NCBI GenBank assembly: GCA_010909165.1 | Contig: VJWM01000284.1 | Coordinates: 66,488-130,487, forward strand | Reading direction: 5' to 3' | Origin: Anthoceros angustus | Lineage: Eukaryota > Plantae > Anthocerotophyta | Length of the DNA stretch: 64,000 nt | In this document: in pieces, positions 7,481 to 51,878 of the stretch | Layout: every line of letters begins with the position of its first letter | How positions within the stretch are numbered: position 1 is the first letter of the stretch | Position numbers and translations under genes: made by a program | The notes under the pieces: model-generated | The model's input: the letters and a program-made list of their open reading frames with translations, nothing else | What the model was told of the DNA's origin: nothing | Database searches by the model: none

Positions 7481-7486
7481 TTATGC

Positions 7487-15800: not shown

Positions 15801-16755
15801 GATTTGCCAAATCTTCCATGTGCGCCATTGGTGGTGGTGGTTTCTGCATGTAGTGAACATGAAAGATTAAAAGATGTTGAAAATGAAAGCTAAATGTGTC
15901 CATAAACATTGAAGGCTTTAAATTACATCAATAACGTGATCTTGAAAGCGTGGATCTTGTAAGGTGACTTGATGTTCAACATTGACACAATCCACTATAG
16001 AGCCATCTGAAAGCTGCAATAGAGTCATGTGAAGAGCTATGAAAAAATTAGTATACTATTATGAATCTAGCTACATTCTCGAACAAATCAAAAGCAGTGG
16101 GAGGCAATCCAATAGAAAAGTCACATCAATAGGTGCAGAAACACAGTACATTGTGCGATTCAACAAATGGTAAGGTAACATTAGCCACCGAGAATGAATT
16201 AGCATGCCTAATTAATGACAAGCAAGCCAATAATAATAAACATCTAGCAAACATGATGATATCTCTCTTTGATTCCATGGTACCACAAACTACATAAAAT
16301 AACTTGACCTTTGCTCACATATATAGTGCATAACCATTTGGTATCTCGATCTTTTACATAAGGATATCTTGATATCTATCGTTTTATATATCTATATATC
16401 TTATCTCAAATAAAATTTTAATTTTAATAATTTTAAACCACTTTGAGAAAATAAGCTTTAAGTTCACATCACATCAATTTAATGTCAACATTTTTCCTCT
16501 GTAATGATCCCAACACCAAGAGCATGGTTGTGGGCATAACGTTCACAAGTATAAGAAGGAAGTTGAGCGTGTCAGTCAGGGAGACTTATTTGTGGAATTC
16601 CATCTAAAATAAAAGTGGCGCGGGTTGCACAAACTATGGTCCCCCTCTTTACTAAAATCATGATCACCACAAATTGTCGGTGCCATTTGCTCCTGGCCTC
16701 TCGGCCAAAGAAACTAGAGACTTCGCGCAACTAGATGCACAGAAACGCTCTTTAA
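12890..16755. repeat. Right arm of the inverted duplication
   Basis: Reverse-complement match to 1700-4555, plus an internal ~1.1 kb tandem duplication. Confidence 0.9.
13286..16278 (-). pseudogene. Second neprosin-family gene with an internal tandem duplication of exons 3-7 (disrupted, or mis-assembled)
   Basis: Same exon set as 2115-4157; last exon 13286-~13705 is intact with FGGEV. Block ~14680-15830 is repeated at ~13545-14680 (offset ~1119 bp) with indels near the junction. Confidence 0.8.
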
Positions 16756-18280: not shown

Positions 18281-21200
18281 CTAGCCATAACTACTTCCAG
18301 ATTCTTCAGTCGCGCCTGATCGGGTCTTCAAAGGTGTCGTTCTCCTCCAGGATATTTTCAGTGTCCGATGAGCCCCCTCGACATCCTTCGGCGGTGTCCG
18401 TTGGACGCCAGATTGTGTCCAATGTCTGCTGCCCACCGTCGAGGATGTCTTTAGTTTTCTCTTTCCTCTTGGAAGACCCCGAAGAAATAACTTGAGCTTG
18501 GACAAACTTTTTTCCGACAAGGTCACCTCTTTAGCCCAGAACTGAGTTGGCCCACGGTGGTGTGGCTCGTGGTTCAACTCCTCCTCTGCGTCCAGCAAAA
18601 CTTCATATCTATGGATCCTCTGAGGAATGAACTTTGCGCAGCGCTTGTCTGTATCCACAGCAATGCGATTCCGGCCACATAGCAGAGCAGCCAATGTTGT
18701 CAAACTACTCCCAGCACAGGCGTCTAAAATCCAATCTCCCTCCTGTGAAAAGTTTTGATGATTCTCATCAATTTGCTCAATGGCCTCTGATACGCACTGA
18801 CTACTAGCTTATCGAGAGATGTGTATAGCAGCTTCTTCACCACAGTATCATGCCCAATGACCGCATGTCCGTTGTTGAAGGAACCCTGCACATTATGTGG
18901 GAGCATGGAAACTCTGGCCTTCTCGATACGAGATGTTGTCCCATACAAATGAGACCCGACCTCCCCCTGTGCACCACTTTCACATTGTCTCCCTGACCGT
19001 GTGGTGCTCTTCCACACCATGCATCACTATCTTCCTTATCTCATCGCAACTTGTCATATCATGGAACGCATCGAAAACTATACTCATCTGTTGCAAGCCC
19101 ATTGTCACATCATGCTTCCCCTTGTTGAACCCTCTAGGCACATCCATGACTATCAATGTTTACTTTCGAATTCGCAGGAAACCTCTCATGTCAATTATAT
19201 CCCTTACCATAACTTGGTACTTGACAATGTTCTCAGTCGTCGGTACTGTGAAAGATTGCAGGCCTTCCTCCATGTCCATGTCTGCCATTGCCCTTTGCTC
19301 CTCCTCTAGGCCTTTCCAAGTGTGCGCTTCAAGCATAAAAGCTTGAAAATCATATGGAAGTTCCTTCAGGTCATCTACATCCTTAACTTGTTATTCAAAC
19401 GAAAGAAGGTGAGTTCATTAGCACGTAGAAGAGGGAGAGGGGAAGAACACTTGCGAGGGCACCAACATGCCGGCGCCCCATTCGGGAAACAGCATAGCAA
19501 AGAAGCATGAACCAACCTTGCCCTCAAACGCCATCTGAAATCTTGCGATGACCTTGTCCGTTGAGTTTTGGGGATATTTCTGCCTGACTTGCTCGAATGA
19601 GTCACATTCGAAGTGCTTGGCCATTACCATCTGAATGACATGGAACTTCTTCTGAAGTGTGATTTCCTTCGCCATCCCATTGAGGTCTAGAAGCCCCGTC
19701 AAAACCTTCTCTGTTGCACTTATCAACATTTGGTGGCCACTCTCTCTAGGTGGGATGCCTTGGAAACTCCTTGAGGGCTTGCCTTGCATCTCTTTTGGCT
19801 TGAGAAAGACGCCATCTACTGCCTTCAACTCGTCAGTCACTTTATGTTTGCCCTTGCTCTTCTGGCTTGTGCCCTCTGCAACATGTTTTGCCTGTTCCGG
19901 CAACTCCATGGCCTCCCACTTGCTAAATATTTTGTCCACATTCTCCCACACTTTTCCTTCCAACTTGGAGATGCATAGAATATGGGTCCTATTGTCCACC
20001 TTGTTCTGTTTATACTGCTTATCCTCACGGCCTTCGTCGTCCTTGATCAGTCCAAGTACTTTGTACAGGTTGAATTTCTAGTTTATGGTCATGTTCACAC
20101 CATCCCGCTTCGCGATTTGCAACTCGTCTCTCAACTTGACTTGCTCAATAAAGTTCATCTTTCTCCTCTTGTCGGACATGGTGTTGTAGTCAGTGGCTAA
20201 AACTCTCATCTCCAGAACAATGAGACCACAATATACATGAGCCTCAATCCACTGGAGGCTCGCCTTACCGGGTGATATGTCCGCATAGCTGCATATATAT
20301 ATATGGTTTCCTCCAAGCACTCCAATCACATACTTCTTAGCCCTGAACTTCTTCCAATCCAGGGAATTAATATCATTGCACTCTTCCGAATCAATCATGC
20401 AAAGGAGAGGCAGCACTCCTTCCTCGATTTCCCCTTTACCCGGGCTAGGTAGTTTGCCCAAGCCTTGTCCACTCTTTGGATTTGCGCATCTGGAGTTAGG
20501 AAGGAAGCAGGTCTCAAGTATTCCAGCTTTACCAACACGGTTTCTGGAACCACTTTCTTCGCATATGCAGCTTCCCTAACAGTCCTCAAATAATCCTCAT
20601 CCAAAACTGATGCCTCCAACCTTTCCTCATCAGTGGACACATGAACAATTGGAATATCGTGGATGTCAGATGGTCTTGCCACTCGCCTGCCCTTCGTCTT
20701 CCCCCTTCCTCACTTTGGGCTCTGCTGACATCGCAGGAGGCTGCTTTCCACTTCCGACTACCACCTGAAGAAACCCGGACCCCACCATCATCAACCACTG
20801 GAGGGGCGCCGACATGTCGGCACCCCTCATGGTTGTCCGCACTGGGTCTGGCCTTCGCTGCCTGTCCATGCCCACTTTGAGCCTTCTTCCCTGTCGGTGG
20901 CTTACTATTGCCACTCCCAGTCCCAGACCCCGGTTCACTCCTAGATTGAAGAACTGCATCTTCATAGGTTGCGGGGTGCCATTTGCCTTGAGAAGGGCCT
21001 GCAGTGGCATGCCGGTGCCCCTCCTCCACTCTTGCATTGTACCCGGGCATAAACCAAGAAACCTGAGGGGTACCCAATTCCTGCATAGCAGGTAGGGTGC
21101 CGGCATGCCGGCGCCCTACCTCTTCCTCATCGTCGATAACACGCGGCACTGAGGGCACAAGCACGGAAGCACCTGGTGGATCGGGTGCAAAGTCCAGATT

Positions 21201-30849: not shown

Positions 30850-32080
30850 AGTGTAATGCTTCACAGACTGAGACATGAGCCGTGACCTAACATGGCCATG
30901 GAGAGCTATGCTGCCTCGGCGTGACAAAGGCTTGAAGGCCATGCAGCCCTTCCACAGAAAACAAGGAAAAGGGAGGCATGGACACCCTAGCCTCGGAGGA
31001 AAGGGAGTCCCTAGCCAACCTAAGGGAAGCCTGCAAAGGGAAGGCCCCCTCCTCAACGCCCGAGACGAAGGCCTCTAAGATGAGAACATCCTGGATTAAG
31101 AAACCAGTGGTGAAGACGTAGGCAGAGAGGGCCCAGCTCCCAAGGACGGCCGCCGGCGTCGAGGCCTCCGTGGCCAGTAGACTTGTGCCCACAAAAGCGA
31201 TAGGAAGGGACGCTTGCTGCTACGCAAAGCCCCCTGCGGCACACTCGAAGGTCCCCGGCCCGATAATGTCTACAAGTGCTACATAATCTGTAGATCAAAA
31301 TTCCGCAGGCTTAATAGAAAAGCTGGGGGGGATCCACCGTCCTGGTAAGGTAACCCGGCCGACGCGCGAAGCGGAACGAAAGGATGACAAATGCCACCTG
31401 AGGGTCCCCTAATAGAGATAGGTTGCCGACGTGGGCCAAGTCCTCCTTCAAATCCTCATCCACAAAACCATGAATAAAGGCGGGAGGTCCCACGGGGACC
31501 CCCAAGACGCAAAGTCCCTGCGAAGGAACAATGTCCCCCCTAGGAAATTGAAGAGAGGGAGTAATGCCAGACGGGGACCAAACCTTGCACTTCAGAATCT
31601 TGACCCTCAAACCCAGGTGGGAGAGCTATGAGGAGAAGAGTGCGAAAGCTTCCCTGACCTTGCCCCCAGGTCCTAAGATATGCGTGTCGTCCACCACGGA
31701 CGGAAAGAGACACTCCCCGACCACACCGGCTGTAATGACTAGGGCCTTGAAGTACACAACGACAAAGAGGGCACCCCCCAAGGGATCCCCCTACCTCGTA
31801 CCGGTCGTCGAGTCCAGCACAGTAACCCCTTCCTTAGATGGTTCGTGCTGAAAGTAGAGGGTAGACGAGGAACCATAGAAAGAGTGGACGAAAGGAATAA
31901 GACTTGCCAGGTGCCCGCTTGCATCCTTGAGCTATGTAAAAATTGCCGTCCTAGAGACCGTGTTGAAAGTGTTCTCGAAGTCCACCTACAGGGCGACCCA
32001 ATGTTGATGTGACTCCAGAACCGCCGCGATACCGAATGTGGCCGACTCACAACCCCCGGAGTGGCAATCCCAAACATACT
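30850..32080 (-). mobile_element. Non-LTR retrotransposon RT fragment (CRE-like)
   Basis: GTR*GDPLGGALF (QGDPL with CAG>TAG), SVVDDTHILGP, KCKVWSP, GLCVLGVPVG, LGDPQVAFVIL. Confidence 0.8.
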
Positions 32081-32464
32081 AAATACGTATTTGAGATATT
32101 GTATATTTTTTTATTTCTTTTTTAATTCCACCTCAAGACCTCAAGACAACATGACGGCGATGGCAATCCACTTCCTTTCCGGCCTCTTAGTCCCCCAACA
32201 AGAGGGAGGTGCGTCCAAGAGTTGGAGGGATCTATGGGGTGCTGCTACCCCGAGAGACTCATGACTCTTATGTATGCAATAAAGTTGGGAATTGGAAGGC
32301 AGGCGATCCAGCAGCTGCATTATGCTGGATGCGGGATAATGTGGAGACCGGAATGATGATAGGATGTGGTGAAGAGGATGTAATGTACCAGCAGCGGCAG
32401 CACTTGCTTCAAATCGAGATGGAAAGAGGACCTGAAGCTGCCGGTGCACGAATATGATACATAG

Positions 32465-33021
32465 AGTAACACCCCCTTAACGGGGTGGGGAAAACCACGC
32501 AGTTAGAAGCAAACTAGGGTAATAAATCAACACCAGACACAGCACTAGGCCTCCAAGTAGCCCGCCCTCCTCTTCTAGGAGGACTCATGAGACACTCTTG
32601 CCTGCTCTTTATTCTTAGATCACGAGTCAACAAGAACATACAATGGAGGGCTAGAGAGAACTCCCCATCTTTGCCTAAGCTAGGAGCTTAGCTCTCTTCA
32701 CTTGACCTCCTCCCAAAGCTCCTTCACAGACTCCTTCCGTGCTTCGCCCAAGCATCAAGTGCTCTCAAGGCATAGCCCAAGCATCAAGTGCTCTCAAGGC
32801 GCAACCCAAGCAACAAGTGCTCTCAAGGTTGAACTGCCTTTAGCTGTAGGCGGTCTCCTTTATACTCAAGCCCTAGCTACAATCTTAGTAACTACTTACT
32901 TAAGCTTTAAGCTATTATTTACTACCACACTTCCTGCATGCTTAACATGCTCTTAGTAAGCTCTTCTAAACATGCCTCTGCATGGAGCTTTCTTACAAGC
33001 ACTCAAGCCGACTTTGTTACT
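32465..33021 (-). mobile_element. LTR 1 (3' LTR) of the chromovirus-type Gypsy element
   Basis: Termini AGTAAC...GTTACT; preceded by CATAG (32460-32464); followed on + by tcctcccc (PPT on -). Confidence 0.9.
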
Positions 33022-36000
33022 TCCTCCCCACTAGGAAGAATCACTCGGTGATAACCAGTAATGAGCAATCATCCAGAGCCTTTCGGATATCCTCTAGTGT
33101 TACCTGGTATTGAGATCCCATCTTTACCATGTATTGTGGTAGAGTTCCACGTCTGCCACGCTACCTTAAGGAATTCTTCAATCTCCGCGGTCCTTGATCA
33201 TCTTTGCGAGGATCTTCTTCCTCCATGTCCTCTTTCTCCTTGCACAAATGGCTTCAGTGAAACATGAAACACATTGTGTGCAAAAATCCGGTGAGCAAGT
33301 CCAACTTATAAGCGACTTCTCCAATGCGCTTAAGGACAACATAAGGACCTCCATACTTTGGCCTCAACTTTAGAGACAAACCTTGGCGTGTGAAATGCTT
33401 CAATTTCACCCAAACCTTATCCCCAACATTGAAGGCAGTTTCTCTCCTTATCATATCTCTTGGCGTGCTTGAGCCTTGGCTAATATCTTTTGGCAATCTC
33501 ATGCCTAGCCTTCAAGCTCAACAAATTGGCGTGGATCTCTGTGGTAGTATCGAAAACTTCATTTAGCATGGATACTACATCCGGTTTCCACTCATCTCAA
33601 AGGGACTATATCCCCAAGGAGCTATATGCGGTGTTGTAACAAAACTCGCATCATCAAGATGATCACCCAATCTCATCAATCGCACATAGTGCCTCAAGTA
33701 TTCTTCTTGGATTCGGTTGACTCGCTGTTAGCCCATCGATGATCGGATGGTATGCGTACTCATGCATAAGCGCACATTCAAACTTCTCATCAAGTCTGCC
33801 AAAATTCTCCGTGAATCTTGGATCTCTATCACTCACAATGCGGGCAAGCCATGATACTTGTACACATACTTCTTGAACAAGTTGGCCCTCGAGCGGTCAC
33901 TCGCTTCTTGGTGGGGATGAAGTGCTTGCAGTGAACCTATCCTGCACCATGATAGTGTAAACCATTCTTTGGGAGGCAAAGGCATGATGAAGTCCATAGA
34001 AATACTTTTCCATGGCCCTCTTGGAATAGGTAGAGTAACAAACCTCTTGGTTTAGCCTTTGTCTACCTTATCCTGGACAAACAAGACATGCCTTGACATA
34101 GTCTAATGTATCTTGATACATTCCTCGATAAAGCCTTCAACTTCTCATAAGTTGAATCACCTCCACAGTGACACGGCACATCATGACATTCAAAGTAACT
34201 TCTTCTTCAAGCCTCTGAGTTAGGAATCACAACTCTCTTACATTTGTATATCAACAAACCATCTCGAGTTTGAACTTGCTTCCTTTCTGCCACCCCATTC
34301 ATCCGATCCACTTGAGATCTTGCGGATAAGCTTCCTTAATCTCTTTGTGAGTATCCACAGGCTCAATCACACTTGCCATTGCCTTGATCCTTGACTCTTT
34401 GCGACTCAACGCGCAACCTTATTCTCCTTTCCGGGTTTGTATTTGAGTCATCATACATAGCTAGGAATCACGCCATCTAGCTTGCCATTCAACTTCAATT
34501 GGTTGAGAAGTATGTTGTCTTGATATTATCGATTATGACACAAAAGACCTACCAAGAGATAGTGCCTCCAAGCCTTTAGGCGTGGATGGCGGTCATTTCC
34601 TTCTCATAGGTGGGATACTTCATCTCATAAGGATGCAACTTCCTTGACTCAAAAGCTAATGGCTTTTGGTCACATCAAAACTCCACCTATAGCCATGTCG
34701 AGGCATCACAATACACTTCTACATCTTTCTTGGGGTCATACATTCCCAACAGGAGTAGTACTCAACTTCTCTTTCAAGTATTCAAAGGCTTGACAATCAG
34801 ATCCACTTCCAAGCTTTTGATGTCTTCAAGAGGTCATTATGTGCTATCTTAGCAAACATATGTACAAACCTCACATGCAGAAACCCATAAAGCTCGTACC
34901 TCATGAATGTTCCGAGGCTGCCAATCTTGAATGGCTTTAACTTTATCGGGATCCATCACGATGCCCTCGGCAGACAATAAAACCTAAGAATGGAATCTCT
35001 TGGCGAAATCACACTTCTTGATTGCCAAGAACAAAGAATTCTCTCTTAGCTTTTGTAACACTTCTCTTAAGTGTTCAAATGTTCCTCAAGGTATGGCTAA
35101 AGATCAAAATGTCATCCGGATAGATTACAACACACTTGTCCACGGATCTATGAATATAGTATTCATAAGTGTATCGAAATGTGTGCATTAGTAAGTCCAA
35201 ATGGCATGACCAAATTCAAAAGCCCCATACACGGTCCTACAATTTGTACTCATGCCCCTCGATCGATCGATAGTACCGCCGCCAGATCCGGTGAAATACT
35301 TCAACCGTCAACATATCATCCATTCTAGGCAAAGGATATGCATTCTTGATTTAATCGATTCGAGCTCGTAATCCGACATCGAGTCCTCCATTCTTTTGCG
35401 TGAACAATACAGCGCGCAAGGAGACTTAGAAACTCGACATATCCCTTTGCCAGTTGGATAGTTGTCGCTTGAGTTCTTGCAACTCATCCGACAATCTATC
35501 TCGGTGCTCTTGAAGGAGGCGTACTCCACGGCTTCAATTCAATCTCATGATCTACTACTGCGAGGCGGCAATGGTGGCAACTCATCGGCATCAAATCCTT
35601 GAACTCATCCAAGATAGCTTGTACTTCTTTTGGGATGTCTTTCACCTCAGTGGAATCTTCTTCTAGACCATCCTCTAGTCCTTGGAGTACAACTAAGTAT
35701 AGCTCCTTCTTTTCCGAGATCCTTCTTAAGCTCTCTTTTGAAATTGTCTTGATGGAGTCTCAAGCTTAGCTAACACTAGCACAACTCACCTTGTGCTTCT
35801 TGGATATCTCAATAGTGCGAGACTTAACATCCATATACACTTCATTGGATCTCATCCACTCCGGGCCTAAGATGATATCATGGTCATCCATCTCGACGGA
35901 AACTCTCATTTCCTTGCCATGCTTGACTTGCAGCTTTACTCCATGCAATTCACCCGAAATTGAGTCCCTTTAGCTTGCTTGATTCCATATGGCGTGGAAG

Positions 36001-37272
36001 TTTCATCCATTCAAGACCAAGCTCTCTTGCCTTACTAGGAGTTATAAAATTGTGGGTGGTGCAGTCCAACAACAACTCTACATCTAAGCCATTCATCTTC
36101 CACATATATACATGAGATCTCCACCTTTCCTCATTATAGTGTCATCCTTGACACTAGATGACTCACCACATGTCTTCACAACATGTGGCCCCAGCGTCTG
36201 GGCTCCTCGGGAAGTTCTTGAATCCGGCTCTTGGAGCAGGTGGATTGGCAAACCAAATTCAAGTTGGGAGCTCCAACATGTGGACAATTCTAGCAAAGTG
36301 TCCTTCTCCATAGTAACACACACACAGCTAGGCACTTGTTGCCGTCTTCCGACCCCAGTATCTCCTCTAGCTCGGCCTCTGCCCGAGTCTCATTGGTTCC
36401 ACTATTCAGTGGTGGTGGCACTCCTCTCCTCTAGATCTACCGAGACCTAGGATATCTTCCTCTTGATACGGTGCCTCTTGAATAAACATATCCGGTATAG
36501 CATCTGCGCCATGGCCTCTTGCAGTGTTTGAGGATTAGTCAAAGCTATCCTATTTTGAGCCCATCTCTTAAGGCCGGTGATAAACTTGTGGAGTTTGTCC
36601 GCTCATGCATCTCTGGACATTGCAAGACAATAGAGCTAAACTCACTCACATACTCCGCAAAGTTCCGGTATGCTTGACATTGTCGAGCATCCTTGTAAAC
36701 TCTGCATTAGCGGGTTGGAAAGCGAGTTGCGGCTTGCTTGAAGTCGCCCATGTGAAGATTGTGGCTCTGCGATTGCCTTGCCTTACGTTCTCAACGTAAG
36801 TCCTCCACCAAGTAAGAGCATAATCCTCTAAGAAATTCGTGTGCTTGGTACTCATCTTGCGGCACTCATGATTCGATGCGCTTCAAGAGAAAAACCAAGG
36901 CGATTTTCTCGTCACGCTCGCCTTTATAAGTCTTTGGGGCTGTATGCTCCCTCAACTTCTTAGACTTTTGGCGGTCTTGCTCTCGAGCTCGGGCTCCACT
37001 TCTTGGCTCTTCTTCAACGAGCTTTACTTTAATCTCGATCCATGGCATCAAGTCTCCTCATGATCTTTTGGGATGGTCCTCTATGGTGGTGCGGTCCTCT
37101 GCTCAAGTTCCTTCCTCCATTCTCACAACTTGCGGACTCGTGGCTCTTCCACGCCGATAGCGGGGCCTTATCTTTCCGGGCGTATCCTTTCCACTCTACT
37201 TGGCTCGGCGGGATCGCCATCTCCACTAGCGTACTAGTCAAAGATGCTTCAACCTATGCTCACGATACCACA
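33022..37272 (-). mobile_element. Full-length but frameshifted Gypsy/chromovirus internal region (gag, protease, RT, RNase H, integrase, chromodomain-like end)
   Basis: PBS tggtatcgtgagc (37270-37258); gag LEDYALTWW; protease-like VELLLD..THNF; DIILGPEWM; RT and RNase H remnants; KLRPKYGGPYVVLKRIGEVAYKLDL; QYMVK-like chromodomain remnant. Confidence 0.9.
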
Positions 37273-37800
37273 AGTAACACCCCCCTCAGCGGGGTGGGGA
37301 AAACCACGATTAGAAGCAAAAATAGGGTAATAAATCAACACCGGACACGGACTAGGCCTCCAAGTAGCCGCCCTCCTCTTCTAGGAGGACTCAGAGACAC
37401 TCTTGCGCTCTTTATTCTTAGATCACGAGTCAACAAGAACATACAGTGGAGGGCTAGAGAACTCCCCATCTTTGCCTAAGCTAGGAGCTTAGCTCTCTCT
37501 TCACTTGACCTCCTCCACAAAGCTCCTTCCACGGCCTCCCCTTAGTGCTTGTTAAGCAACAAGTGCTCTCAAGGCGCAACCCAAGCAACAAGTGCTCTCA
37601 AGGTTGGGCCCAGGCTCTTTAGCCAGGCGAGGTCTCCTTTATACTCAAGCCCTAGCTACAATCTTAGTAACTACTTACTTAAGCTTTAAGCTATTATTTA
37701 CTACCACACTTCCTAGGGCTGCATGCTTAACATGCTCTTAGTAAGCTGCTCTTCTAAACATGCCTCTGCATGGAGCTTTACAGCACTCAAGCCGACTTGT
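37273..37800 (-). mobile_element. LTR 2 (middle LTR), missing its last few bases on the right
   Basis: Near-identical to LTR 1 and LTR 3; starts AGTAAC after the PBS; ends ...gccgacttgt instead of ...gactttgttact. Confidence 0.9.
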
Positions 37801-38121
37801 AGTGTGTGGAACAATGTCATCCACAGCGCCACAGGGAAAGAGGGACGTGGGGCACCCTTCAGTAGGTCCTGCCAGAACCGAAAGACTGGAAACTCCTCCA
37901 TCCGCAGTCTCCCCGCGCCGGTCGCCGCCCCTCCCATCATTTTGAAGGGAATGACACAGTTCGTAGTTATGGTGTTGGCAGAAAAATTAAAAAAAAACAT
38001 ACCTTCAAGAAAATAAAATAAATATTTGAGCAGAAAATTCGCAGGAAAACCCCTCATCATTCTGGGGTTAAGCAGGCACTTCCACCCACCAATGAGCACT
38101 TGGCCTACTTCTTTATTTTTC

Positions 38122-40317
38122 TCACGGTCGGCCCTTACAACTGCAATAACCAGCTGCGAATCGATGCACACGGTATCCATCTCTTACAACAATGTCTCTT
38201 TGTTCAAGCCTTGACATTATCTCCGTGGAACTGTGGCAGTCACTGCACATGCGTAGATTCTTCGTTACCACCAGAGGTGTCCCACTCGGAGTGTTCAACA
38301 GACCAAACGCTAGAGCTAGCTTCTCAGCATGCCCACAAAGCACATCTTCCTTTTCCCTCTCAGACACTGGCTTCAGCACCAACTTTGTGTGAGGTACGTG
38401 GCCTCCTTCTTGCTTCACACGTGCATTTGTGCTCTCTACCTTAAGCGCAATATCCTCTCCTTTCTCCCACCAAATCTATGTACCTGCTTATTCACCTCAA
38501 TGGTCGCCACTGCAGGTTTCTTGTTAGCTCCTGCTGCCTTCTCTGTGTTTCAATCCTGTCTACATCGGTCCACCTACCTGCATCTGCGTAGGCATTGGCC
38601 ATGAGCACACGCAGACGCCTGTTGAGGTCCAGCCTAACAATGCTTTCAAAACACCATCGCCCTCTCTATCCCGTGACTTTTGCAGGCATTCAACAAAGAC
38701 GTCAAGCCCACAACATTACTTTGGCCCTCACATGATAATAGCATCTTCTCTGCCTCATCTAAATGGCCTGCACGCCCAAGAAGATCAATCATGCAAGGTA
38801 ATGCTCAATAGTAGGTTTTGATGCCATGCTGTTCAGCCATGGAATCAAAGTGCTTGCGACCCTCTGGACCAGTCCCTCATGACTGCATGCTACTAGAAGG
38901 CAAGTAAAGTAGCATCATTAGGCTGAATACCGGCAACTAACATCTCCTCAAAACAAGCTAGTGCCTTGTGACCTTCATCACAAGTACCATACCCAGATAT
39001 CAGGGCATTCCATGTCACCACATCCTTTGTGCCATGCTGTCAAAAACCTGGCGTGCATCTTCCAGTTCACCACATTTTGCATACATGTCCACCAGGCAGT
39101 TGCCACAGGCAGTTATCCAGCAGTCCTCTTTCGACAATCTGTGAGTGCAGCTGCCTGCCCTTCTGTAAGGCACCAGTGCTTGCACAGGCCTTCAGAAGGC
39201 AAGCAAAAGTAACATGGTCAGCCAAAATGAGGCCCTCCTCCTCCATTTGTCCATACACAAGCGCCTCTTGGCCGAGTCCTTGCTGTGCATACCCAGCAAT
39301 CAGGGCATTCCATGTCACCACATCCTTTGTGGCCATGCTGTCAAAAACCTGGCGTGCATCTTCCAGTTCACCACATTTTGCATACATGTCCACCAGGCAG
39401 TTGCCCACCATTACGTCAGCAGTCCTCTTTCGACAATCTGTGAGTGCAGCTGCCTGCCCTTCTGTAAGGCACCAGTGCTTGCACAGGCCTTCAGAAGGCA
39501 AGCAAAAGTAACATCAGCCAAAATGAGGCCTCCTCCTCCATTTGTCCATACAAGCGCCTCTTGGCGAGTCCTTGCTGGGCATACCCAGCTATCAGGGCGG
39601 TCCATGTCACCACATTCTTCGTGGCCATGCTGTCAAAAACCCGGCGTGCGTCTTCTAGTTCACCACATTTTGCATACATGTCCAACAGGCAGTTGCCCAC
39701 CACTACGTCATCCAGCACTCCTCTTTTGACAATCTGTGAGTGCAGCTGCTTGCCCTTCTGTAAGGCACCAGTGCTTCCACAGGCCTTCAGAAGGCAAACA
39801 AAAGTAACATCGTCAGCCAAAATGAGGCCTTCTTGCTCCATTTTTCCATACACAACAAGCGCCTCATGTAGCCTTGCATACCCAGCAATCAGGGCATTCC
39901 ATGTCACCACATCCTTTGTGCCATGCTGTCAAAAACCTGGCGTGCATCTTTCAGTTCACCACATTTTGCATACCCAGCAATCAGGGCATTCCATGTCACC
40001 ACATCCTTTGTGCTGTCAAAAACCTGGCGTGCATCTTCCAGTTCACCACATTTTGCATACATGTCCACCAGGCAGTTGCCAACAAGTTAGTGAATGCCAC
40101 TGTGCACCACATCACAGTGCACTTTTCTGCCAGATTCCAAGTCGGCAAATGCACAAGCTTGAAGGGCAGCAAAGACGTGAGCATCCGCCTTCACTCCTGA
40201 CCTACGCATCTCATGGTACAGTTGTATGGCCTCATTAGGTTTCCCATGCTTAGCGTATGCGGAGATTATGGAAGACCACATGAAGGCATCTGGTTTGCCC
40301 CTGGTGAACACATCCAT
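38122..40317 (-). pseudogene. 5'-truncated, frameshifted PLS-class PPR gene with DYW:KP (GRP) domain, embedded in the LTR structure
   Basis: Repeated P-L-S motifs (VVTWNALIAGYAQQG, HVTFACLLKACASTGAL, VGNCLVDMYAKCGELEDAR). C-terminus HAEKLA..CSDCH..SCKGRP. Confidence 0.92.
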
Positions 40318-43300
40318 GGCCCTCTTGGAATAGGTAGTGTAACAAACCTCTTGGTTTAGCCTGTTCTACCTTATCCTGGACAAACAGACATGCCTTGACA
40401 TAGTCTAATGTATCTTGATACATTCCTCGATAGCTTCTTCAACTTCTCATAAGTTGAATCACCTCCAGTGACCCGGCACATCATGACATTTGACATTCTT
40501 AACTTCTTCTTCAAGCCTACAGAGTTAGGAATCACAACTCTCTTCTGTTTGTATATCAACAAACCATCTCTGAGTTTGAACTTACTTCCTTTCTCTGCCA
40601 CCCCATTCATCCAGTCCTGCACTTCAGGATCTTGCAGATAAGCTTCCTTAATCTCTTTGTGAGTATCCACAGGCTCAATCACAGTTGCCATTGCCTTCAG
40701 TCCTTGACTGTTTGCGACTCAACGCATCTGCAACCTTATTCTCCTTTCCAGGTTTATATTTTAGAGTCACATCATACATAGCTAGGAAATCCTGCCATCT
40801 AGCTTGTCTGCATTCAACTTTGGTTGGAAGTATGTTATCTTGATATTATCTGACAAAAGACCTACCAAGAGATAGTGCCTCCAAGCCTTTAGGCGGTGGA
40901 TGGCGGTCATTTCCTTCTCATAGGTGGGATACTTCATCTCATAAGGATGCAACTTCCTTGACTCAAAAGCTAACGGCTTTTGGTCCCATCAAAACTCCAC
41001 CTATAGCCATGTCAGGCATCACACTTCTACATCTTTCTTGGGGTCATACATTCCCAACAGGAGTAGTACTCAACTTCTCTTTCAAGTATTCAAAGGCTTG
41101 ACAATCGGCATCCCACTTCCAAGCTTTTGATGTCTTCAAGAGGTCGATTATGGGGCGCTATCTTAGCAAACATATGTACAAACCTCACACGAAGCCAAAC
41201 CCATAAAGCTCAGTACCTCATGAATGTTCCGAGGCCAATCTTGAATGGCTTTAACTTTATCGGGATCCATCACGATGCCCTCGAGACAATAAAACCTAAG
41301 AATGGAATCTCTCTTGGCGAAATCACACTTCTTGATTGCCAAGAACAAAGAATTCTCTCTTAGCTTTTGTAACACTTCTCTTAAGTGTTGACATGTTCCT
41401 CAAGGTATGGCTAAAGATCAAAATGTCATCCGGATAGATTACAACACACTTGTCCACGGATCTATGAATATAGTATTCATAAGTGTATGAAATGTGCATT
41501 AAGTAAGTCCAAATGGCATGACCAAAATTCAAAAGCCCCATACGGTCCTACAAGCTTTGTACTCATGCCCTCGATCCGATGATAGTACCACATCGGATCC
41601 GACAGTGAAATACTTGGCACCCTTCAACTGTCAACATATCATCCATTCTAGGCAAAGGATATGCATTCTTGATTGTAATCGATTCGAGCTCGTAATCCGG
41701 ACACAATCGAGTCCTCCATTCTTTTTCTTGGCGTGAACAATACAGCGCAAAGGAGACTTAGAAACTCGACATATCCCTTTGCCAGGGTTGGATAGTTGTC
41801 GCTTGAGTTCTTGCAACTCATCATGACAATCTATACGGTGCTCTTGAAGGAGGCGTACTCACGGCTTCAAGTCAATCTCATGATCTACTACTGCGAGGCG
41901 GCAATGGTGGCAACTCATCGGCATCAAATCCTTGAACTCATCCTTGTACTTCTTTTGGGATGTCTTTCACCTCATGGAATCTTCTTCTAGACCATCCTCT
42001 AGTCCTTGAGTACAACTAAGTATAGCTCCTTCTTTTCCGAGATCCTTCTTAAGCTCTCTTTTGAAATGTCTTGATGGAGTCTCAAGCTTGCTAACACTAG
42101 CACAACTCACCTTGTGCTTCTTGGATATCTCAATAGTGCGAGACTTAACATCCATATACACTTCATTGGATCTCATCCACTCCGGGCCTAAGATGATATC
42201 ATGGTCATCCATCTCGGCGTGAAACTCTCATTTCCTTGCCATGCTTCAACTTGCAGCTTTACTCCATGCAATTCGAGTGCAGTCCCTTTAGCTTGCTTGA
42301 TTCCATATGGCGTGGAAGTTTGTCCATTCAAGACCAAGCTCTCTTGCCTTACTAGGAGTTATAAAATTGTGGGTGGTGCGAATCCAACAACAACTCTACA
42401 TCTAAGCCATTCATCTTCCCACATATATACATGAGATCTCCACCTTTCCTCATTATAGTGTCATCCTTGACACTAGATGACTCACCACATGTCTTCACAA
42501 CATGTGGCCCAGCGTCACTGGGCTCCTCGGGAAGTTCTTGAATCCGGCTCTTGGAGCAGGTGGATTGGGCAACAAATTCAAGTTGGGAGCTCCAACATGT
42601 GGACAATTCTAGCAAAGTGTCACTTCTCCATAGTAACACACACACAGCTAGGCAGCATTCGCGTCTTCCACGACCCTGTTATCTCCTCTAGCTCGGCCTC
42701 TGGTAGTCTCATTGGTTCCACTATTCAGTGGTGGTGGCTCGTCCTCTCCTCTAGATCTACACGAGACCTAGGATATCTTCCTCTTGATACTGGTGCCTCT
42801 TGAATAAACATATCCGGTATAGCATCTGCGCCATGGCCTCTTGCAGTGTTTGAGGATTAGTCAAAGCTATCCTATTTTGAGCCCATCTCTTAAGGCCGTG
42901 ATAAACTTGTGGAGTTTGTCCGCTCATGCATCTCTGGACATTGCAAGACAATAGAGCTAAACTCACTCACATACTCCCAAAGTTCCGGTATGCTTGACAT
43001 TGTCGAGCATCCTTGAACTCATTGCATTAGCGGGTTGGAAAGCGGAGTTGCGGCGCTTGAAGTCCGCCCATGTGAAGATTGTGGCTCTGCGATTGCCTTG
43101 CCTTACGTTCTCAGCGTAAGTCCTCCACCAAGTAAGAGCATAATCCTCTAAGAAATTCGTGGCGTGCTTGTGCTCATCTTGCGGCACTCATGATTCAGTC
43201 CAAAGAAAAACCAAGAGCGATTTTCTCGTCACGCTCGCCTTTATAAGTCTTTGGGGCTGTGCTCACCTCAACTAGACTTTTGGCGGTGCTCTGCTCGCTC

Positions 43301-43569
43301 CACTTCTTGGCTCTTCTTCAACGAGCTTTCGCCTTTAATCTCGATCCATGGCATCAAGTCTCCTCATGATCTTTTGGAGTGGTCCTCTATGGTGGTGGGT
43401 CCTCTGCTCAAGTTCCTTCCTCCATTCTCACAACTTGCGGACTGTGGCTCTTCCACGGCCCCGGGGGCCTTATCTTTCCGTGCCTTTCCACTCTACTTGG
43501 CTCGTGAGGATCGCCATCTCCACTAGCGTACTAGTCAAAGATGCTTCAACCTATGCTCACGATACCACA
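40318..43569 (-). mobile_element. Second chromovirus internal copy (gag to integrase N-terminus), truncated at the PPR junction
   Basis: Colinear copy of ~34010-37272; PBS at 43567-43555; ends at PIPRGPW, just before the integrase core. Confidence 0.9.
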
Positions 43570-44128
43570 AGTAACACCCTCAGCAGGGTGGGGAAAACCA
43601 CGATTAGAAGCAAACTAGGGTAATAAATCAACACGGACCCTAGGCCTCCAAGTAGCCGCCCTCCTCTTCTAGGAGGACTCGCAGAAGCACTCTTGCACTC
43701 TTTATTCTTAGATCACGAGTCAACAAGAACATACAGGTGGAGGGCTAGAGAACTCCCCATCTTTGCCTAAGCTAGGAGCTTAGCTCTCTCTTCACTTGAC
43801 CTCCTCCACAAAGCTCCTTCACGGCCTCCCCTTGGGTGCTCCGCCCAAGCAACAAGTGCTCTCAAGGCATAGCCCAAGCATCAAGTGCTCTCAAGGCGCA
43901 ACCCAAGCAACAAGTGCTCTCAAGGTTGAACGCTCTTTAGCCGGGCGAGGTCTCCTTTATACTCAAGCCCTAGCTACAATCTTAGTAACTACTTACTTAA
44001 GCTTTAAGCTATTATTTACTACCACACTTCCTAGGGCTGCATGCTTAACATGCTCTTAGTAAGCTGCTCTTCTAAACATGCCTCTGCATGGAGCTTTCTT
44101 GCAAAGCACTCAAGCCAGCTTTGTTACT
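43570..44128 (-). mobile_element. LTR 3 (5' LTR)
   Basis: AGTAAC...GTTACT followed by CATAG (44129-44133), matching the sequence left of LTR 1. Confidence 0.9.
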
Positions 44129-44330
44129 CATAGACTAAAATGAGTAGGTGTTCTGTTCTGTAGCATTCTCACGATTCACGAATCGAGCTCTTATTAAAAA
44201 TAATAATGCGAAAGAACGAACGTACATTCTGATGTCATGAAGAGAATGGAGGATCTATGTTCACATCCCGCTCCACGTTAGCACTTGCAGTTGCCCTACG
44301 CTGTCCCAGTTGTCGCTCCAGGCCGAGGGG

Positions 44331-46715
44331 ATGCGTCGGCGGGGACTGTTGTGGACCCAAAAAATTGGTGTTTGTACAGGGATTCTACGAGGAGCTCCCG
44401 CTCACCTCACTTCTGGGAGTCAACCCCTTGCAAACCACCAAGCCTCCAGGTGCAGCAGTTTAAGGAGCCCAGCATTTCCACTTTTTAGAAAATGTGTGGG
44501 TGTGGACGGGTTATCCTGCGATGGTCGTCGCCACGAGCAGGAGCACTTGTGGGAACAATTTTTTTTGGACCCTACCATGTGGTGGGACAACAGACGAGAT
44601 AAGTATAGCTCCCGTTCGCCTGACTTCCGGCGTAAGGGGTCCGGCGAGGTGCTGTGGTTAAATAGCATGTTTAAGCCAGCTTGGGTTGATGAGCAGCTCG
44701 TTTCCTTGGATATGCAGATGGGTCATGGTGCCTCTCCTTCCGGGTCCAGCTTTTCAGGCAAGCCTGAACCTGGCAGGCATGCAGGATCGGAAATGGGACT
44801 CGTTACGGCTGTAACCGTGAGCATGTTATGTCAGGAGGGGAAGCTTTCTGAGGCCGTTGAAGCCCTGGAATCCCTGGCGCTGGCACACTCTGCTATTTCT
44901 CAGTCTCTGTTTTACACTGTGCTGAAATTGTGTACAGCTAAGAAGGATCTGGTTGTGGGGCGACGAGTTCATGACCTCACTGTCAAATTCGGGTACGAGT
45001 CGGATGCATACTTGGGGAATCATATCTTGCGCATGTATGCATGCGGGGGTAGTCTGCAGGAGGCCATGGATGTGTTCACCAGGGTGGGCAAACCGAATGT
45101 CTTCATGTGGTTTTCCATAATCTCTGCGTATGCTAAGCATGGAAAACCTAACGAGGCCATACAACTGTACCATGAGATGCGTAGATCAGGAGTGAAGGCA
45201 GATGCGCACGTCTTTCTAGCTGCCCTTCAAGCATGTGCATTTGCCGCCGACTTGGAGTCTGGCAGAAAGGTGCATTGTGATGTATTGCACAGTGGCATTC
45301 CTGTTAACTTGTTCGTTGGCACCTGCCTGGTGGACATGTATGCAAAATGTGGCGAACTGAAAGATGCACGCCAGGTTTTTGACAGCATGAACACAAAGGA
45401 TGTGGTGACATGGAATGCCTTGATTGCTGGGTATGCAAAATTTGGCGAACTGGAAGATGCACGCCGGGTTTTTGACAGCATGAACACAAAGGATGTGGTC
45501 ACTTGGACGACGCTGATTGCTGGGTATGCACAGCAAGACCTAGGACATGAGGCGCTTGTTCTGTATGGACAAATGGAGAAGGAGGGCCTCATTTTGGCTG
45601 ATCATGTTACTTTTGCTTGCCTTCTGAAGGCCTGTGCAAGCACTGGTGCCTTACAGAAGGGCAGGCAGCTGCACTCACAGATTGTGGGAAGCGGACTGCT
45701 GGACAGTGTACTAGTGGGCAACTGCCTGGTGGAAATGTATGCAAAATGTGGTGAACTTGAAAATGCACGCCAGGTGTTTGACAGCATGGCCACAAAGGAC
45801 GTGGTGACATGGACCGCCCTCATATCTGGGTATGGTACTTGTGATGAAGGTCACAAGGCACTAGCTTGTTTTGAGGAGATGTTAGTTGCCGGTATTCAGC
45901 CTGATGGTGCTACGTTTACTTGCCTCTTAGTTGCATGCAGTCATGAGGGACTGGTCCAGGAGGGTCGCAAGCACTTTTATTCCATGGCTCAACAGCATGG
46001 CATCAAACCTACAATTGAGCATTACACCTGTATGATTGATCTTCTTGGACGCGCGGGCCATTTACTTGAGGCTGAGAAGATGCTAATGTCATGTGAGGGC
46101 CAAAGTGATGTCGTGGGGTTGATGTCTTTGCTGAATTCCTGCAAAAGTTATGGGGATATAGCGAGGGCGACGTGGTGTTTTGAAAGCATTGTTAGGCTGG
46201 ACCCCCTTCAGGCGCCCCCATACGTGCTTATGGCCAATGCCTATGCAGATGCAGGCAGGTGGACCGATGTAGACAGGATCGAAACACAGAGACGGGCAGC
46301 AGGAGCTAACAAGAAACCTGCAGTGGCAAGCATTGAGGTGAATAAGGAGGTACATAGATTTGTGGTGGGAGAAAGGAGAGAAGATATTGTGTTCAAGGTA
46401 GATAGCATGAATGCCCGTCTGAAGCAGGAAGGAGGCCACGTTCCTCGCACAAAGTTGGTGTTGAAGCCACTGTGTGAGAAGGAAAAGGAAGATGTGCTTT
46501 GTGGGCATGCTGAAAAGCTAGCTCTGGCCTTTGGTCTCTTGAACACTCCGAGTGGGACACCTCTGGTGGTAACGAAGAATCTGCGCATGTGCAGTGATTG
46601 CCACAGTTCCACGGAGATCATGTCAAGGCTTGAACAGAGAGACATTGTTGTAAGGGATGGCTACCGTGTGCATCGATTCGCAGCTGGTTGTTGTAGTTGT
46701 AAAGGTCGACCATGA
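44331..46715 (+). CDS. PLS-class PPR protein with E1/E2 and DYW:KP (GRP) domain, putative organellar U-to-C editing factor, with an N-terminal OSB-type PDF motif
   Basis: Intronless intact ORF, first ATG at 44331. Transit-peptide-like start; WWDNR..SPDF..GEVLWL; 12 PLS motifs; KPAVASIEV, HAEKLA, CSDCH and terminal GRP. Confidence 0.95.
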   Translation: MRRRGLLWTQKIGVCTGILRGAPAHLTSGSQPLANHQASRCSSLRSPAFPLFRKCVGVDGLSCDGRRHEQEHLWEQFFLDPTMWWDNRRDKYSSRSPDFRRKGSGEVLWLNSMFKPAWVDEQLVSLDMQMGHGASPSGSSFSGKPEPGRHAGSEMGLVTAVTVSMLCQEGKLSEAVEALESLALAHSAISQSLFYTVLKLCTAKKDLVVGRRVHDLTVKFGYESDAYLGNHILRMYACGGSLQEAMDVFTRVGKPNVFMWFSIISAYAKHGKPNEAIQLYHEMRRSGVKADAHVFLAALQACAFAADLESGRKVHCDVLHSGIPVNLFVGTCLVDMYAKCGELKDARQVFDSMNTKDVVTWNALIAGYAKFGELEDARRVFDSMNTKDVVTWTTLIAGYAQQDLGHEALVLYGQMEKEGLILADHVTFACLLKACASTGALQKGRQLHSQIVGSGLLDSVLVGNCLVEMYAKCGELENARQVFDSMATKDVVTWTALISGYGTCDEGHKALACFEEMLVAGIQPDGATFTCLLVACSHEGLVQEGRKHFYSMAQQHGIKPTIEHYTCMIDLLGRAGHLLEAEKMLMSCEGQSDVVGLMSLLNSCKSYGDIARATWCFESIVRLDPLQAPPYVLMANAYADAGRWTDVDRIETQRRAAGANKKPAVASIEVNKEVHRFVVGERREDIVFKVDSMNARLKQEGGHVPRTKLVLKPLCEKEKEDVLCGHAEKLALAFGLLNTPSGTPLVVTKNLRMCSDCHSSTEIMSRLEQRDIVVRDGYRVHRFAAGCCSCKGRP

Positions 46716-47233: not shown

Positions 47234-48694
<1,461 letters not shown>

Positions 48695-50539: not shown

Positions 50540-51878
50540 AGGGCATACGAATCAAATGCATACTTGGAACCATATCCTGCATGTATTCATGGGAGGTAGG
50601 GTACAAGGGGCCATGGATGTGTTCACCATGGTGGGGAAACCAGATGCCTACACGTGCTCTTGCATAGGCTCCGCACATTCCAAGCACGGGAAACCAAATG
50701 AGGCGATTCAACTGTACCTTGAGATGCGTAGTCCAGGTGTGCAGGCGGATGCTCACATGTTTGTGGCTGCCTTTCAAGCTTGTGCACCTTCCGCCGACTT
50801 GGAATCTGGGAGAAAAGTGCTCTTCGATGTGTTGAACAGTGGCACTCATCCTGGCTTATTCGTTGGCAGCTGCCTGGTGGACTTATATGCAAAATGTGGC
50901 GAACTGAAGGATGCCCGCTGGATTTTTGATAGCTTGGTCAGAAGGGATGTGTTGACATGGACGGCTCTGATTGCAGGGTATGCAAATCATGGTGTTCGTC
51001 AAGAGGCGCGTTTTCTGTATGAACTAATGGAGCAAGAGGGAGTGATTGTGGCTGACCATGTTACTGTTACTTGCCTTCTCAAGGTCTGTGCCAGCGCTGG
51101 TGCCTTACAAAAGGGCAGGCAGATGCATTGACAGATTGTGTCAGGAGGACAGCTAGATAACACACTCATGGGCAACTGCCTGGGGGACATGTATGTAAAG
51201 TGTGGAGAAGTTGAAGATGCACGCCAGGTTTTGGACAATTTGGCCAAAAAGGATGTGGTGACATGGACGCCCTCATTGCCGGGTATGCATGCCACATAGC
51301 TGGGTATGCACAGCTGGGGCTGGGTGACGAGGCGCTTGTTCTGAGTGGACAAAGGGAGCTTGAGGGCCTGATTGTGGTGGCTATGTTACGTTTGCTGGCC
51401 TTCTGAAGGCCGAAGGTCTGTGCACGGGATGGTGCCTTACGGAAGGGCAGGCAGCTGCACTCCCTGGATAACTTACTAGTGGGCAACAGCTTGGTGGATA
51501 AGTATGCCAAATGTGGCAAAGTGGGAGATGCATGGCGGGTTTCTTGACGGCTTGTCCACAAACAATGTGGCTGACATGAACGGCCCGCATCGCTTCGGCC
51601 AAGAAGCGCTTGTTGTGTGCGGAAAAATGGAGCTGGAGGGCCTGATTGTGGCTGACGAAGTTACTTTCGCTTGCCTTCTGAAGGCCTGTGCATGCGCTGG
51701 TGCCTTACAGAAGGGCAGGCAGTTGCACTCACAGCGTATGGAAAGAGGAAAGCGATATCACATACTGGTAGTGGACATGTATGCAAAATGTGGCAAACCG
51801 GAAGATGCTCGCCTGGTTTTTGATAGCGTGGAAGCTGGACTCAATTTGTTATTATGCAACAAAACACAGTCGCTTTAG
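50540..51878 (+). pseudogene. PLS-class PPR pseudogene of the same family as 44331-46715; no E/DYW seen
   Basis: AMDVFTMVGKPD, KHGKPNEAIQLY, ADLESGRKV and FACLLKACACAGALQKGRQLH, with a stop at 51129-51131 and frameshifts. Confidence 0.9.

What the first reader, a model, noticed from the sequence alone, without database searches (positions are those of the whole stretch)
32460..44133. Three-LTR chromovirus unit carrying a captured U-to-C editing-factor gene
Seen, reading the minus strand: CATAG-flanked LTR, PBS, gag-PR-RT-RH, a junction at the shared 8-mer CCATGGCC (~40314-40321), then PPR-DYW:KP in the same sense with ~320 bp of 3' flank, LTR, PBS, a complete gag-pol, PPT and LTR. One 5-bp TSD brackets the whole 11.7 kb. 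The PPR copy replaces the integrase core and PPT, is out of frame with pol but begins at its own ATG, and differs from the neighbouring intact gene in sequence, motif number and 3' flank. Inference: template-switch capture of a PPR mRNA in a tandem element that includes a complete internal copy. This would be a direct mechanism for the expansion of intronless editing-factor genes.
Basis: partly seen in the sequence, partly recalled or inferred. Interest (0 to 1): 0.8.

Follow-up and report, generated by a model that had tools for sequence, protein, structure and literature searches.

The report
Editing-gene fragment inside triple-LTR retrotransposon
In a likely hornwort genome, a jumping gene with three terminal repeats and one target-site duplication holds a front-truncated piece of an RNA-editing gene, which was likely patched in as DNA from a nearby gene rather than captured as messenger RNA and so likely made no new working editor.

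Summary
The anatomy is in the sequence. On the minus strand: LTR1, PBS, gag to integrase zinc finger, a 9-nt microhomology, a PPR-DYW:KP (GRP) block with 320 bp of flank, LTR2, PBS, a full internal region, PPT and LTR3, bracketed by CATAG. Corrections: the ATG is an internal Met (codon 276 of the neighbouring gene), so the copy lacks its N-terminus; no chromodomain was shown; the LTRs end AGT...ACT; the unit is unpolished long-read sequence. LTR2 starts at or within about 6 nt of its terminus, with no PPT or poly(A). The block therefore likely came from a genomic locus with an element copy downstream, not from a free mRNA. Short-read contigs match the right outer end and the PPR flank but span neither inner junction, and the flank looks single-copy. 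The PPR block lacks the element's CG/CWG-linked errors and lies head-to-head with a 91-94% identical paralogue. Gene capture by LTR elements, tandem elements and PPR retroposition are all published. The scan had not noted this on other DNA.

The parts
32460..32464 (.). left target-site 5-mer CATAG
   Evidence: identical to 44129-44133
32465..33021 (-). LTR3 (3' LTR), ends AGTAAC...GTTACT, three ~29-nt internal units
33022..33029 (-). polypurine tract (8 purines) abutting LTR3
33030..37257 (-). internal copy 2: gag, protease, RT, RNase H, integrase (zinc finger, core, SH3); frameshifted in this assembly; ~200-nt tail after the SH3 where a chromodomain would lie is unassigned
37258..37270 (-). 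PBS-like site after LTR2 (TGGTATC; resembles the initiator-Met site, recalled)
37273..37803 (-). LTR2 (middle LTR): start within 3 edits of the full terminus, no PPT before it, lacks one ~29-nt unit
37804..38121 (-). 3' flank of the PPR block: T-rich stretch ~95-145 nt after the stop, then a GC-rich part with a 50-69 nt motif shared at 85-94% with other contigs; no poly(A)
38122..40317 (-). 5'-truncated PPR-DYW:KP (GRP type) block: starts at an internal Met, five S-motif anchors, E motifs, KP, HAE, CxxC, GRP-stop
40313..40321 (-). 9-nt microhomology shared by the integrase-core start (also 34017-34009) and the PPR gene (45062-45070 in the neighbour)
40322..43554 (-). internal copy 1: gag, protease, RT, RNase H, integrase zinc-finger region
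43555..43567 (-). PBS-like site after LTR1
43570..44128 (-). LTR1 (5' LTR), three ~29-nt units; outer end matched by a short-read contig
44129..44133 (.). right target-site 5-mer CATAG
44241..46715 (+). neighbouring intact, intronless PPR-DYW:KP (GRP) gene A (824 codons stop to stop, first ATG 44331), head-to-head with the unit; not the direct donor

Best explanation
A young gypsy-type element with three LTRs and one CATAG target-site duplication holds an extra 6.3-kb block, which was likely patched in at the DNA level from a likely nearby locus where a GRP-type PPR gene had another copy of the same element 320 bp downstream. Shown: the block begins at a 9-nt word shared by the integrase core and an internal codon of the PPR gene; it runs through the PPR 3' part, the flank and LTR2; and it rejoins element sequence by long homology. 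Inferred: a break near the integrase core of the resident element was repaired by microhomology-primed copying of the donor, with a homologous return. Alternatively the same block looped out of the donor as a circle at the two 9-nt words and recombined into the resident element, which would leave one copy of the flank. Inferred: the product is a truncated, out-of-frame PPR pseudogene without its targeting N-terminus, not a new editing factor. The shared core (block taken from a genomic gene-plus-element locus, one non-homologous junction) I put at about 0.65; this DNA route at 0.38.
For: One TSD (chance 0.0015). LTR1 and LTR3 both have three ~29-nt units while LTR2 has two, so the outer LTRs pair. 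LTR2 begins within 3 edits of the full terminus, with no PPT and no poly(A). 9-nt microhomology (4e-5). The block lies head-to-head with a paralogue 91-94% identical; I estimate a randomly placed new insertion would do so 1-3% of the time (inference). In X1 one contig at depth 5.99 is the only substantial cover of the flank, against 9 for the single-copy contig next to gene A; under ideal Poisson sampling depth <=6 has probability 0.035-0.27 for one copy and <=0.0007 for two. Gaps sit beside 121 of 274 CG/CWG sites in the element but only 24 of 142 in the PPR triplets, so the PPR block does not look methylated like the element (link between methylation and nanopore error is recalled).
Against: Neither inner junction is spanned by a listed contig. 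No donor was found: there is no genome and none in the window. A plain copying event predicts two flank copies, which the depth speaks against; the circle version fits the depth but needs two rare steps. The flank is unpolished (3 indel places, 4 extra letters in 218 nt), which is easier to explain if a second copy exists in the assembly. The tool warns that contig depth is a poor copy count. PPR versus gene A does show a weak CG-linked gap excess (9/72 vs 9/188, P=0.032). Many paralogues exist at about 90%, so gene A is not uniquely close.
Confidence: 0.38

Rival explanations
1. 5'-transduction finished by one template switch. A transcript of the donor PPR gene would read through LTR2 and the whole downstream element, be co-packaged with a normal element RNA and be reverse transcribed. 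RT would switch at the 9-nt word to the normal RNA, and integrase would insert all 11.7 kb at CATAG.
For: It explains three LTRs, one TSD, the terminus-type LTR2 junction, no PPT before LTR2, no poly(A), the same sense and the 5' truncation with a single non-homologous jump. Microsimilarity-led switches are the published route for LTR-mediated retrocopies. Template-switch complexes with one TSD are described.
Against: It predicts a near-identical donor, but the flank looks single-copy. It does not predict landing beside a close paralogue. The block lacks the element's CG/CWG error pattern. It needs read-through past the gene's and LTR2's poly(A) signals (inference).
Confidence: 0.27
2. Assembly error. 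A simple element sits at CATAG, and a noisy long-read assembly has spliced in a PPR-plus-element stretch from another locus through the 3.8-kb and 5.3-kb repeats.
For: The unit is unpolished. No listed contig spans either inner junction. The flank is single-copy by depth yet uncorrected. The PPR block has a different error pattern from the element. Two other tandem duplicates in the window differ at similar noise level.
Against: A chimeric read would not be expected to join at a 9-nt shared word (4e-5), so the 40318 junction is probably biological somewhere. The contig hole begins at an 81% GC stretch in a shallow run, and X1 holds only 0.31 of the sampled words, so holes are expected. LTR2 differs from both outer LTRs by a whole repeat unit.
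Confidence: 0.18
3. No capture at all. The PPR gene would be a resident inverted paralogue of gene A with one element inserted upstream and another downstream; a microhomology deletion then fused the upstream element's integrase to PPR codon 276. The matching CATAG would be chance or target preference.
For: It fits single-copy depth, the gene-like error pattern, the head-to-head paralogue and the LTR2 junction. The flank's frame is open for 67 codons up to LTR2, and the matching frame is open for 107 codons beyond LTR3, whereas the right flank has stops. Fly elements with AGT ends have target preferences.
Against: It needs the TSD match by coincidence (0.0015 without preference). CTATG is not readable before LTR2: edit distance 6 versus 3, and 246 of 1024 5-mers fit better. 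LTR1 and LTR3, not LTR2 and LTR3, share the unit count. In-window repeat homologues of the left flank did not align to the PPR flank.
Confidence: 0.1
4. One reading: RT would leave the element RNA for a free PPR mRNA and return, inside a tandem element.
For: Same sense; the block replaces part of the internal frame; microhomology at the 5' junction.
Against: It needs the 3' switch to fall by chance within about 6 nt of the LTR terminus. There is no poly(A) and no second microhomology was shown. The distal flank holds a dispersed motif. It needs a second tandem-forming step, and it shares the depth and adjacency problems of the read-through model.
Confidence: 0.07

Closest known systems
LTR-mediated retrocopies (Tan et al. 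2016, PMC5131818; passages seen)
   Same: Part of the internal frame is replaced by a partial host gene in the same sense, with microsimilarity at a junction (median 6 bp there, 9 here).
   Different: Those have two switch points inside one two-LTR element. Here the 3' junction is at an LTR terminus and a third LTR and a full internal copy follow.
Tandem LTR-retrotransposons with a shared middle LTR (Morales-Diaz et al. 2025, PMC11899658, parts 1-4 of 6; Sabot and Schulman 2007, PMC1950507, part 1 of 2)
   Same: Three LTRs, two internal regions, one 5-bp TSD; gypsy elements over-represented; RNA versus DNA origin left open by the 2025 authors.
   Different: Here the first internal region lacks integrase core and PPT and carries 2.5 kb of host DNA.
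PPR expansion by dispersed duplication/retroposition (PMC13386178; section 6 and passages)
   Same: Intronless PPR genes near or between LTR elements in hornworts, lycophytes and Takakia, including a DYW pair flanked by gypsy LTRs.
   Different: That study counts TEs within 20 kb and poly(A) tracts; the section I read gives no junction-level case. The copy here is truncated and has no poly(A).
NLR retroduplication inside LTR elements (Kim et al. 2017, PMC5664825; passages) and maize Bs1
   Same: Host gene-family members lying inside plant LTR elements.
   Different: There, intron-bearing parents showed the RNA step; here no donor is known and the family member next door is intronless.
Hornwort DYW:KP, GRP subgroup (Ichinose et al. 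2022, PMC9478123; passages)
   Same: HAE active site, CxxC, GRP C-terminus; designer GRP proteins edit U to C.
   Different: The copy lacks the first 275 codons of the neighbour's frame; its activity is untested.
Drosophila errantiviruses with AGT/AnT ends (PMC5408687; passages)
   Same: LTR termini AGT...ACT with several complementary terminal bases (six here).
   Different: A plant-type pol (nearest hits are angiosperm polyproteins), a 5-bp TSD and no env-like frame seen; target preference untested.

Membership tests
Ty3/gypsy LTR retrotransposon | LTRs, 5-bp TSD, PBS and PPT | tested here: met
Ty3/gypsy LTR retrotransposon | domain order PR-RT-RH-INT | tested here: met
   Pfam on fragments; tblastn of P0008/P0009 with their Pfam maps
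Canonical plant LTR element | TG...CA termini | tested here: not met
   AGTAAC at LTR1 and LTR3 starts, GTTACT at all three ends; LTR1 start matched by X1 with 0 differences
Chromovirus | chromodomain at the integrase C-terminus | tested here: inconclusive
   0 Pfam families for 3 of 3 tail fragments; frameshift-aware scores reached by 11/150 and 25/150 shuffles, while the SH3 control had 0/150; both of the 2 homologues found carry Chromo
Chromovirus | RT phylogeny within a chromoviral clade | not tested
   no reference lineage set was held, and the frames are noisy
Chromovirus | Met-tRNA PBS within 3 nt of the LTR; 7-14 purine PPT abutting the 3' LTR (PMC3605345) | tested here: met
   2-nt spacer then TGGTATC; 8-purine PPT; the Met assignment is recalled, and the feature is not specific to chromoviruses
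DYW:KP, GRP subgroup | HAE...CxxC and C-terminal GRP | tested here: met
   (DYW E 9.7e-35); definition
DYW:KP, GRP subgroup (functional factor) | complete N-terminus for organelle import | tested here: not met
   the block starts at the equivalent of codon 276 of 824
DYW:KP, GRP subgroup (functional factor) | U-to-C editing activity | not testable with these tools
   needs an assay
LTR-mediated retrocopy | host sequence replaces part of the internal frame | tested here: met
   987 nt of internal sequence replaced by 2509 nt
LTR-mediated retrocopy | microsimilarity at both switch points | tested here: inconclusive
   9 nt at the 5' junction; at the 3' junction the donor continuation is unknown
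LTR-mediated retrocopy | intron loss relative to a parent gene | not testable with these tools
   no donor and no genome; the neighbour is intronless
LTR-mediated retrocopy | a separate parent locus exists | tested here: inconclusive
   flank depth fits one copy, but contigs are shallow and filtered
Retrogene (general) | poly(A) remnant at the 3' junction | tested here: not met
   the only A-run of 5 or more is 4 nt after the stop
Tandem LTR retrotransposon | three LTRs under one TSD | tested here: met
Tandem LTR retrotransposon | two complete internal regions | tested here: not met
   copy 1 stops at the integrase-core start
Tandem LTR retrotransposon | outer LTRs most alike | tested here: inconclusive
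   odd-one-out events 16/15/20 for LTR1/2/3 (noise); only the ~29-nt unit count pairs LTR1 with LTR3

The most novel reading that the evidence does not exclude
A plant case of 5'-transduction caught at junction level: an editing-factor transcript read into a downstream gypsy element with AGT...ACT ends, was packaged, and was completed by one microhomology template switch into a three-LTR, one-TSD insertion. A 2026 review states that 5'-transduction has not been reported in plants (PMC13317346, passage seen). A switch further upstream would deliver a whole editing factor behind an LTR promoter.
Probability: 0.27. Interest if true: 0.65.

Novelty: new variant of a known kind. Interest (0 to 1): 0.4.

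Why it matters
Hornworts carry up to about 2,300 PPR genes, and the published case for retroposition rests on genome-wide counts. A young, junction-readable event would test how these genes are copied. This one points to a gene-plus-downstream-element locus as the source and yields a truncated product, so it cautions against reading every LTR-flanked intronless PPR gene as a retrogene. If the read-through route is right, it would be a plant example of 5'-transduction. The AGT...ACT ends would be missed by TG...CA-based annotation (inference).

Tried and rejected
No whole genome is held, so the donor search, the copy count and the empty site could not be run. Run search: no RNA holder listed; RNA run X24 laid 0 reads on 37640-38150, which is no test. 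Relatives' depth in the flank first looked like an orthologous flank but is a 50-nt dispersed motif in X5 and X13; rejected. Gene A as direct donor: rejected, with 6-9% substitutions, two fewer triplets and a different flank. Gene C as donor: 14.7% substitutions. A simple 6.3-kb tandem duplication in place: rejected, because the DNA before LTR1 differs from that before LTR2. The 46-codon frame in the distal flank: no homologue; the 4 hits are repeat-summed chance matches; no Pfam. Left-flank frames: no family above cut-off. RNase H fragment search: none at E<=1e-8. Chromodomain: not found. Atlas look-ups gave only SH3 and PPR leads. No tRNA gene in the window. The bacterial promoter scan is not informative for a plant. 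Earlier findings: nothing by sequence, words or near place. The literature search for methylation-linked nanopore errors found no usable paper, so that link is recalled. PMC8075897 passages were read for background only. No supplementary files were read; those of PMC13386178 and PMC11899658 may list similar loci.
Full report
1. Observation. Read on the minus strand, the window shows CTATG, LTR1 (44128-43570), a PBS-like site, an internal copy, a PPR-DYW block, 322 nt of flank, LTR2 (~37803-37273), a PBS-like site, a second internal copy, an 8-purine PPT, LTR3 (33021-32465) and CTATG. Two local 5-mers match by chance with probability 0.0015. Pfam on unchanged fragments gave gag, protease, RT, RNase H, integrase zinc finger and SH3 matches, several of them weak. 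tblastn of two homologous polyproteins gave the gypsy order and put the 40318 junction at the start of the integrase core. The junction word is 9 nt, shared by the element (34017-34009) and the neighbouring PPR gene A (45062-45070); random junctions reach 9 nt in 4 of 100,000 trials. The block has HAE, CxxC and a GRP end, which defines a hornwort DYW:KP subgroup.

2. Corrections. The ATG at the junction equals codon 276 of gene A's 824-codon frame, so the copy lacks the N-terminus and first motifs. It is out of frame with pol. Of 382 cleanly aligned codons against gene A, 295 are identical, 54 synonymous, 33 non-synonymous and 0 are stops, so the source was likely a selected gene. Gene A is not the donor: 6-9% substitutions, two fewer triplets, a different flank. 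A chromodomain was not shown, although both homologues found have one. The LTRs end AGTAAC...GTTACT. The unit is noisy: the internal copies differ by 59 substitutions and 111 indel events in 3368 columns, and X1 shows that the window's flank has 4 extra letters at 3 places in 218 nt. Coding intactness and LTR age cannot be read from this sequence.

3. Independent data. The best holder, X1, has 0.31 of the sampled words. It matches 44102-44359 with no difference, including 27 letters of LTR1, below the tool's 31-letter bridging rule. It matches the DYW end plus flank (37927-38144) with no substitution at depth 5.99. No piece of X1, X5 or X13 covers 37802-37837, and the X1 contig stops at an 81% GC stretch. 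No listed piece spans 40318, but that table was cut to the longest pieces. X5 and X13 have no cover on LTR2's first 160 nt, so the family looks young or lineage-specific. Against a single-copy depth of 7.5-9, depth <=6 has probability 0.035-0.27 for one copy and <=0.0007 for two under ideal sampling; the tool warns that such depth is a poor copy count.

4. What the junctions say. LTR2 starts within 3 edits of the full terminus in a noisy spot, with no PPT and no poly(A) before it. A free template switch would rarely fall there; an integrase-made junction always does (inference). So the block likely came from a genomic locus where this element had inserted 320 bp below a PPR gene. The outer LTRs share three ~29-nt units and LTR2 has two; other LTR differences are noise (16, 15 and 20 odd-one-out events). 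The unit is thus best described as one TSD-bracketed element plus a 6304-nt addition with a single non-homologous junction.

5. DNA or RNA. Three observations lean to a local DNA event. First, single-copy depth. Second, the block lies head-to-head with a close paralogue in a small PPR cluster; I estimate 1-3% for a randomly placed insertion, although many paralogues exist at about 90%. Third, error pattern: gaps lie beside 121 of 274 CG/CWG sites in the element but 24 of 142 in the PPR triplets, and CWG exceeds the GWC control in the element (42/81 vs 53/152) but not in the triplets (15/108 vs 8/48). This suggests an unmethylated, gene-like block; the link between methylation and nanopore error is recalled, and a weak CG excess against gene A (P=0.032) runs the other way. 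Against the DNA route: plain copying also predicts two copies, the circle variant needs two steps, the uncorrected flank suggests a second copy in the assembly, and the same-sense layout is what RNA requires. My odds, which are judgement and not computed: DNA-level templated or circle insertion 0.38; read-through RNA with one switch 0.27; assembly error 0.18; deletion between two independent insertions 0.10 (open frames on both sides, but CTATG is not readable before LTR2); two-switch mRNA capture 0.07.

6. What is known. LTR-mediated retrocopies with microsimilarity (PMC5131818, passages), tandem three-LTR elements under one TSD (PMC11899658, parts 1-4 of 6; PMC1950507, part 1 of 2), genes inside plant LTR elements (PMC5664825, passages) and PPR expansion by retroposition with LTR-flanked examples in early land plants (PMC13386178, section 6 and passages) are published. 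It works like these composites. It is a gypsy element and a GRP-type DYW:KP fragment; membership among retrocopies and chromoviruses is not established. Searches listed no junction-level PPR capture, judged from listings and the papers named; the library lacks most subscription papers, and no supplements were read. A review states that 5'-transduction is unreported in plants (PMC13317346, passages). AGT ends are described for fly errantiviruses (PMC5408687, passages) and were not among lotus copia end types (PMC9804982, passages).

7. Verdict. A probably real, unusual composite whose inner junctions remain unverified. It is a new variant of known kinds. It does not show a direct route to new working editing factors, because the copy is truncated and the RNA step is unproven. 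Interest 0.4; 0.65 if the read-through route holds.

Noticed in passing
window 44128, 43570, 37273, 33021, 32465: The gypsy family has AGTAAC...GTTACT ends. In the lotus survey the first base was always T in its eight non-canonical copia end types; AGT ends are described for fly errantiviruses. Searches listed no plant case by title or abstract start.
   Followed up: partly
window 32465-44128, 5993-9125, 13530-15830: Indels between repeat copies cluster at CG/CHG sites (54 of 112 versus 21 expected; 24 of 66; 17 of 36), which looks like a methylation footprint in long-read consensus errors. Both internal copies read YPDD at the RT active site, at such a site, likely a shared error.
   Followed up: partly
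window 44526-44720: Gene A has an N-terminal segment (WWDNRR...SPDF...LWL) resembling the PDF motif of plant organellar ssDNA-binding OSB proteins (recalled). No Pfam, NCBIfam or PDB support.
   Followed up: partly
window 44129-44331: The element sits about 200 bp upstream of gene A's first in-frame ATG, in the opposite sense, and may affect its expression.
   Followed up: no
window 38988-39973: Three P-L-S triplets in the copy differ by 9-21 substitutions per ~300 nt: recent motif expansion within the gene.
   Followed up: partly
window 50546-51831: A third, degenerate PPR paralogue (gene C) beyond a polyubiquitin gene at 47234-48694; the region is a small PPR cluster.
   Followed up: partly
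window 5993-9125 and 13530-15830: Two tandem duplicates of about 1.6 and 1.1 kb whose copies differ mostly by indels; real or assembly duplicates.
   Followed up: no
window 10533-11110: Integrase-like remnant of another gypsy family on the plus strand; no DNA match to this family.
   Followed up: no
window 18284-18808: Weak match to a DNA methylase family (N6_N4_Mtase, E 1e-4, below cut-off).
   Followed up: no
window 31000-32050: Degenerate stretch that by eye resembles a non-LTR reverse transcriptase on the minus strand (recalled motifs, not tested).
   Followed up: no
window 1702-4497 and 12936-16755: Long inverted repeats, about 84-85% identical, bracketing 1.7-16.8 kb; possibly a large DNA transposon.
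   Followed up: no
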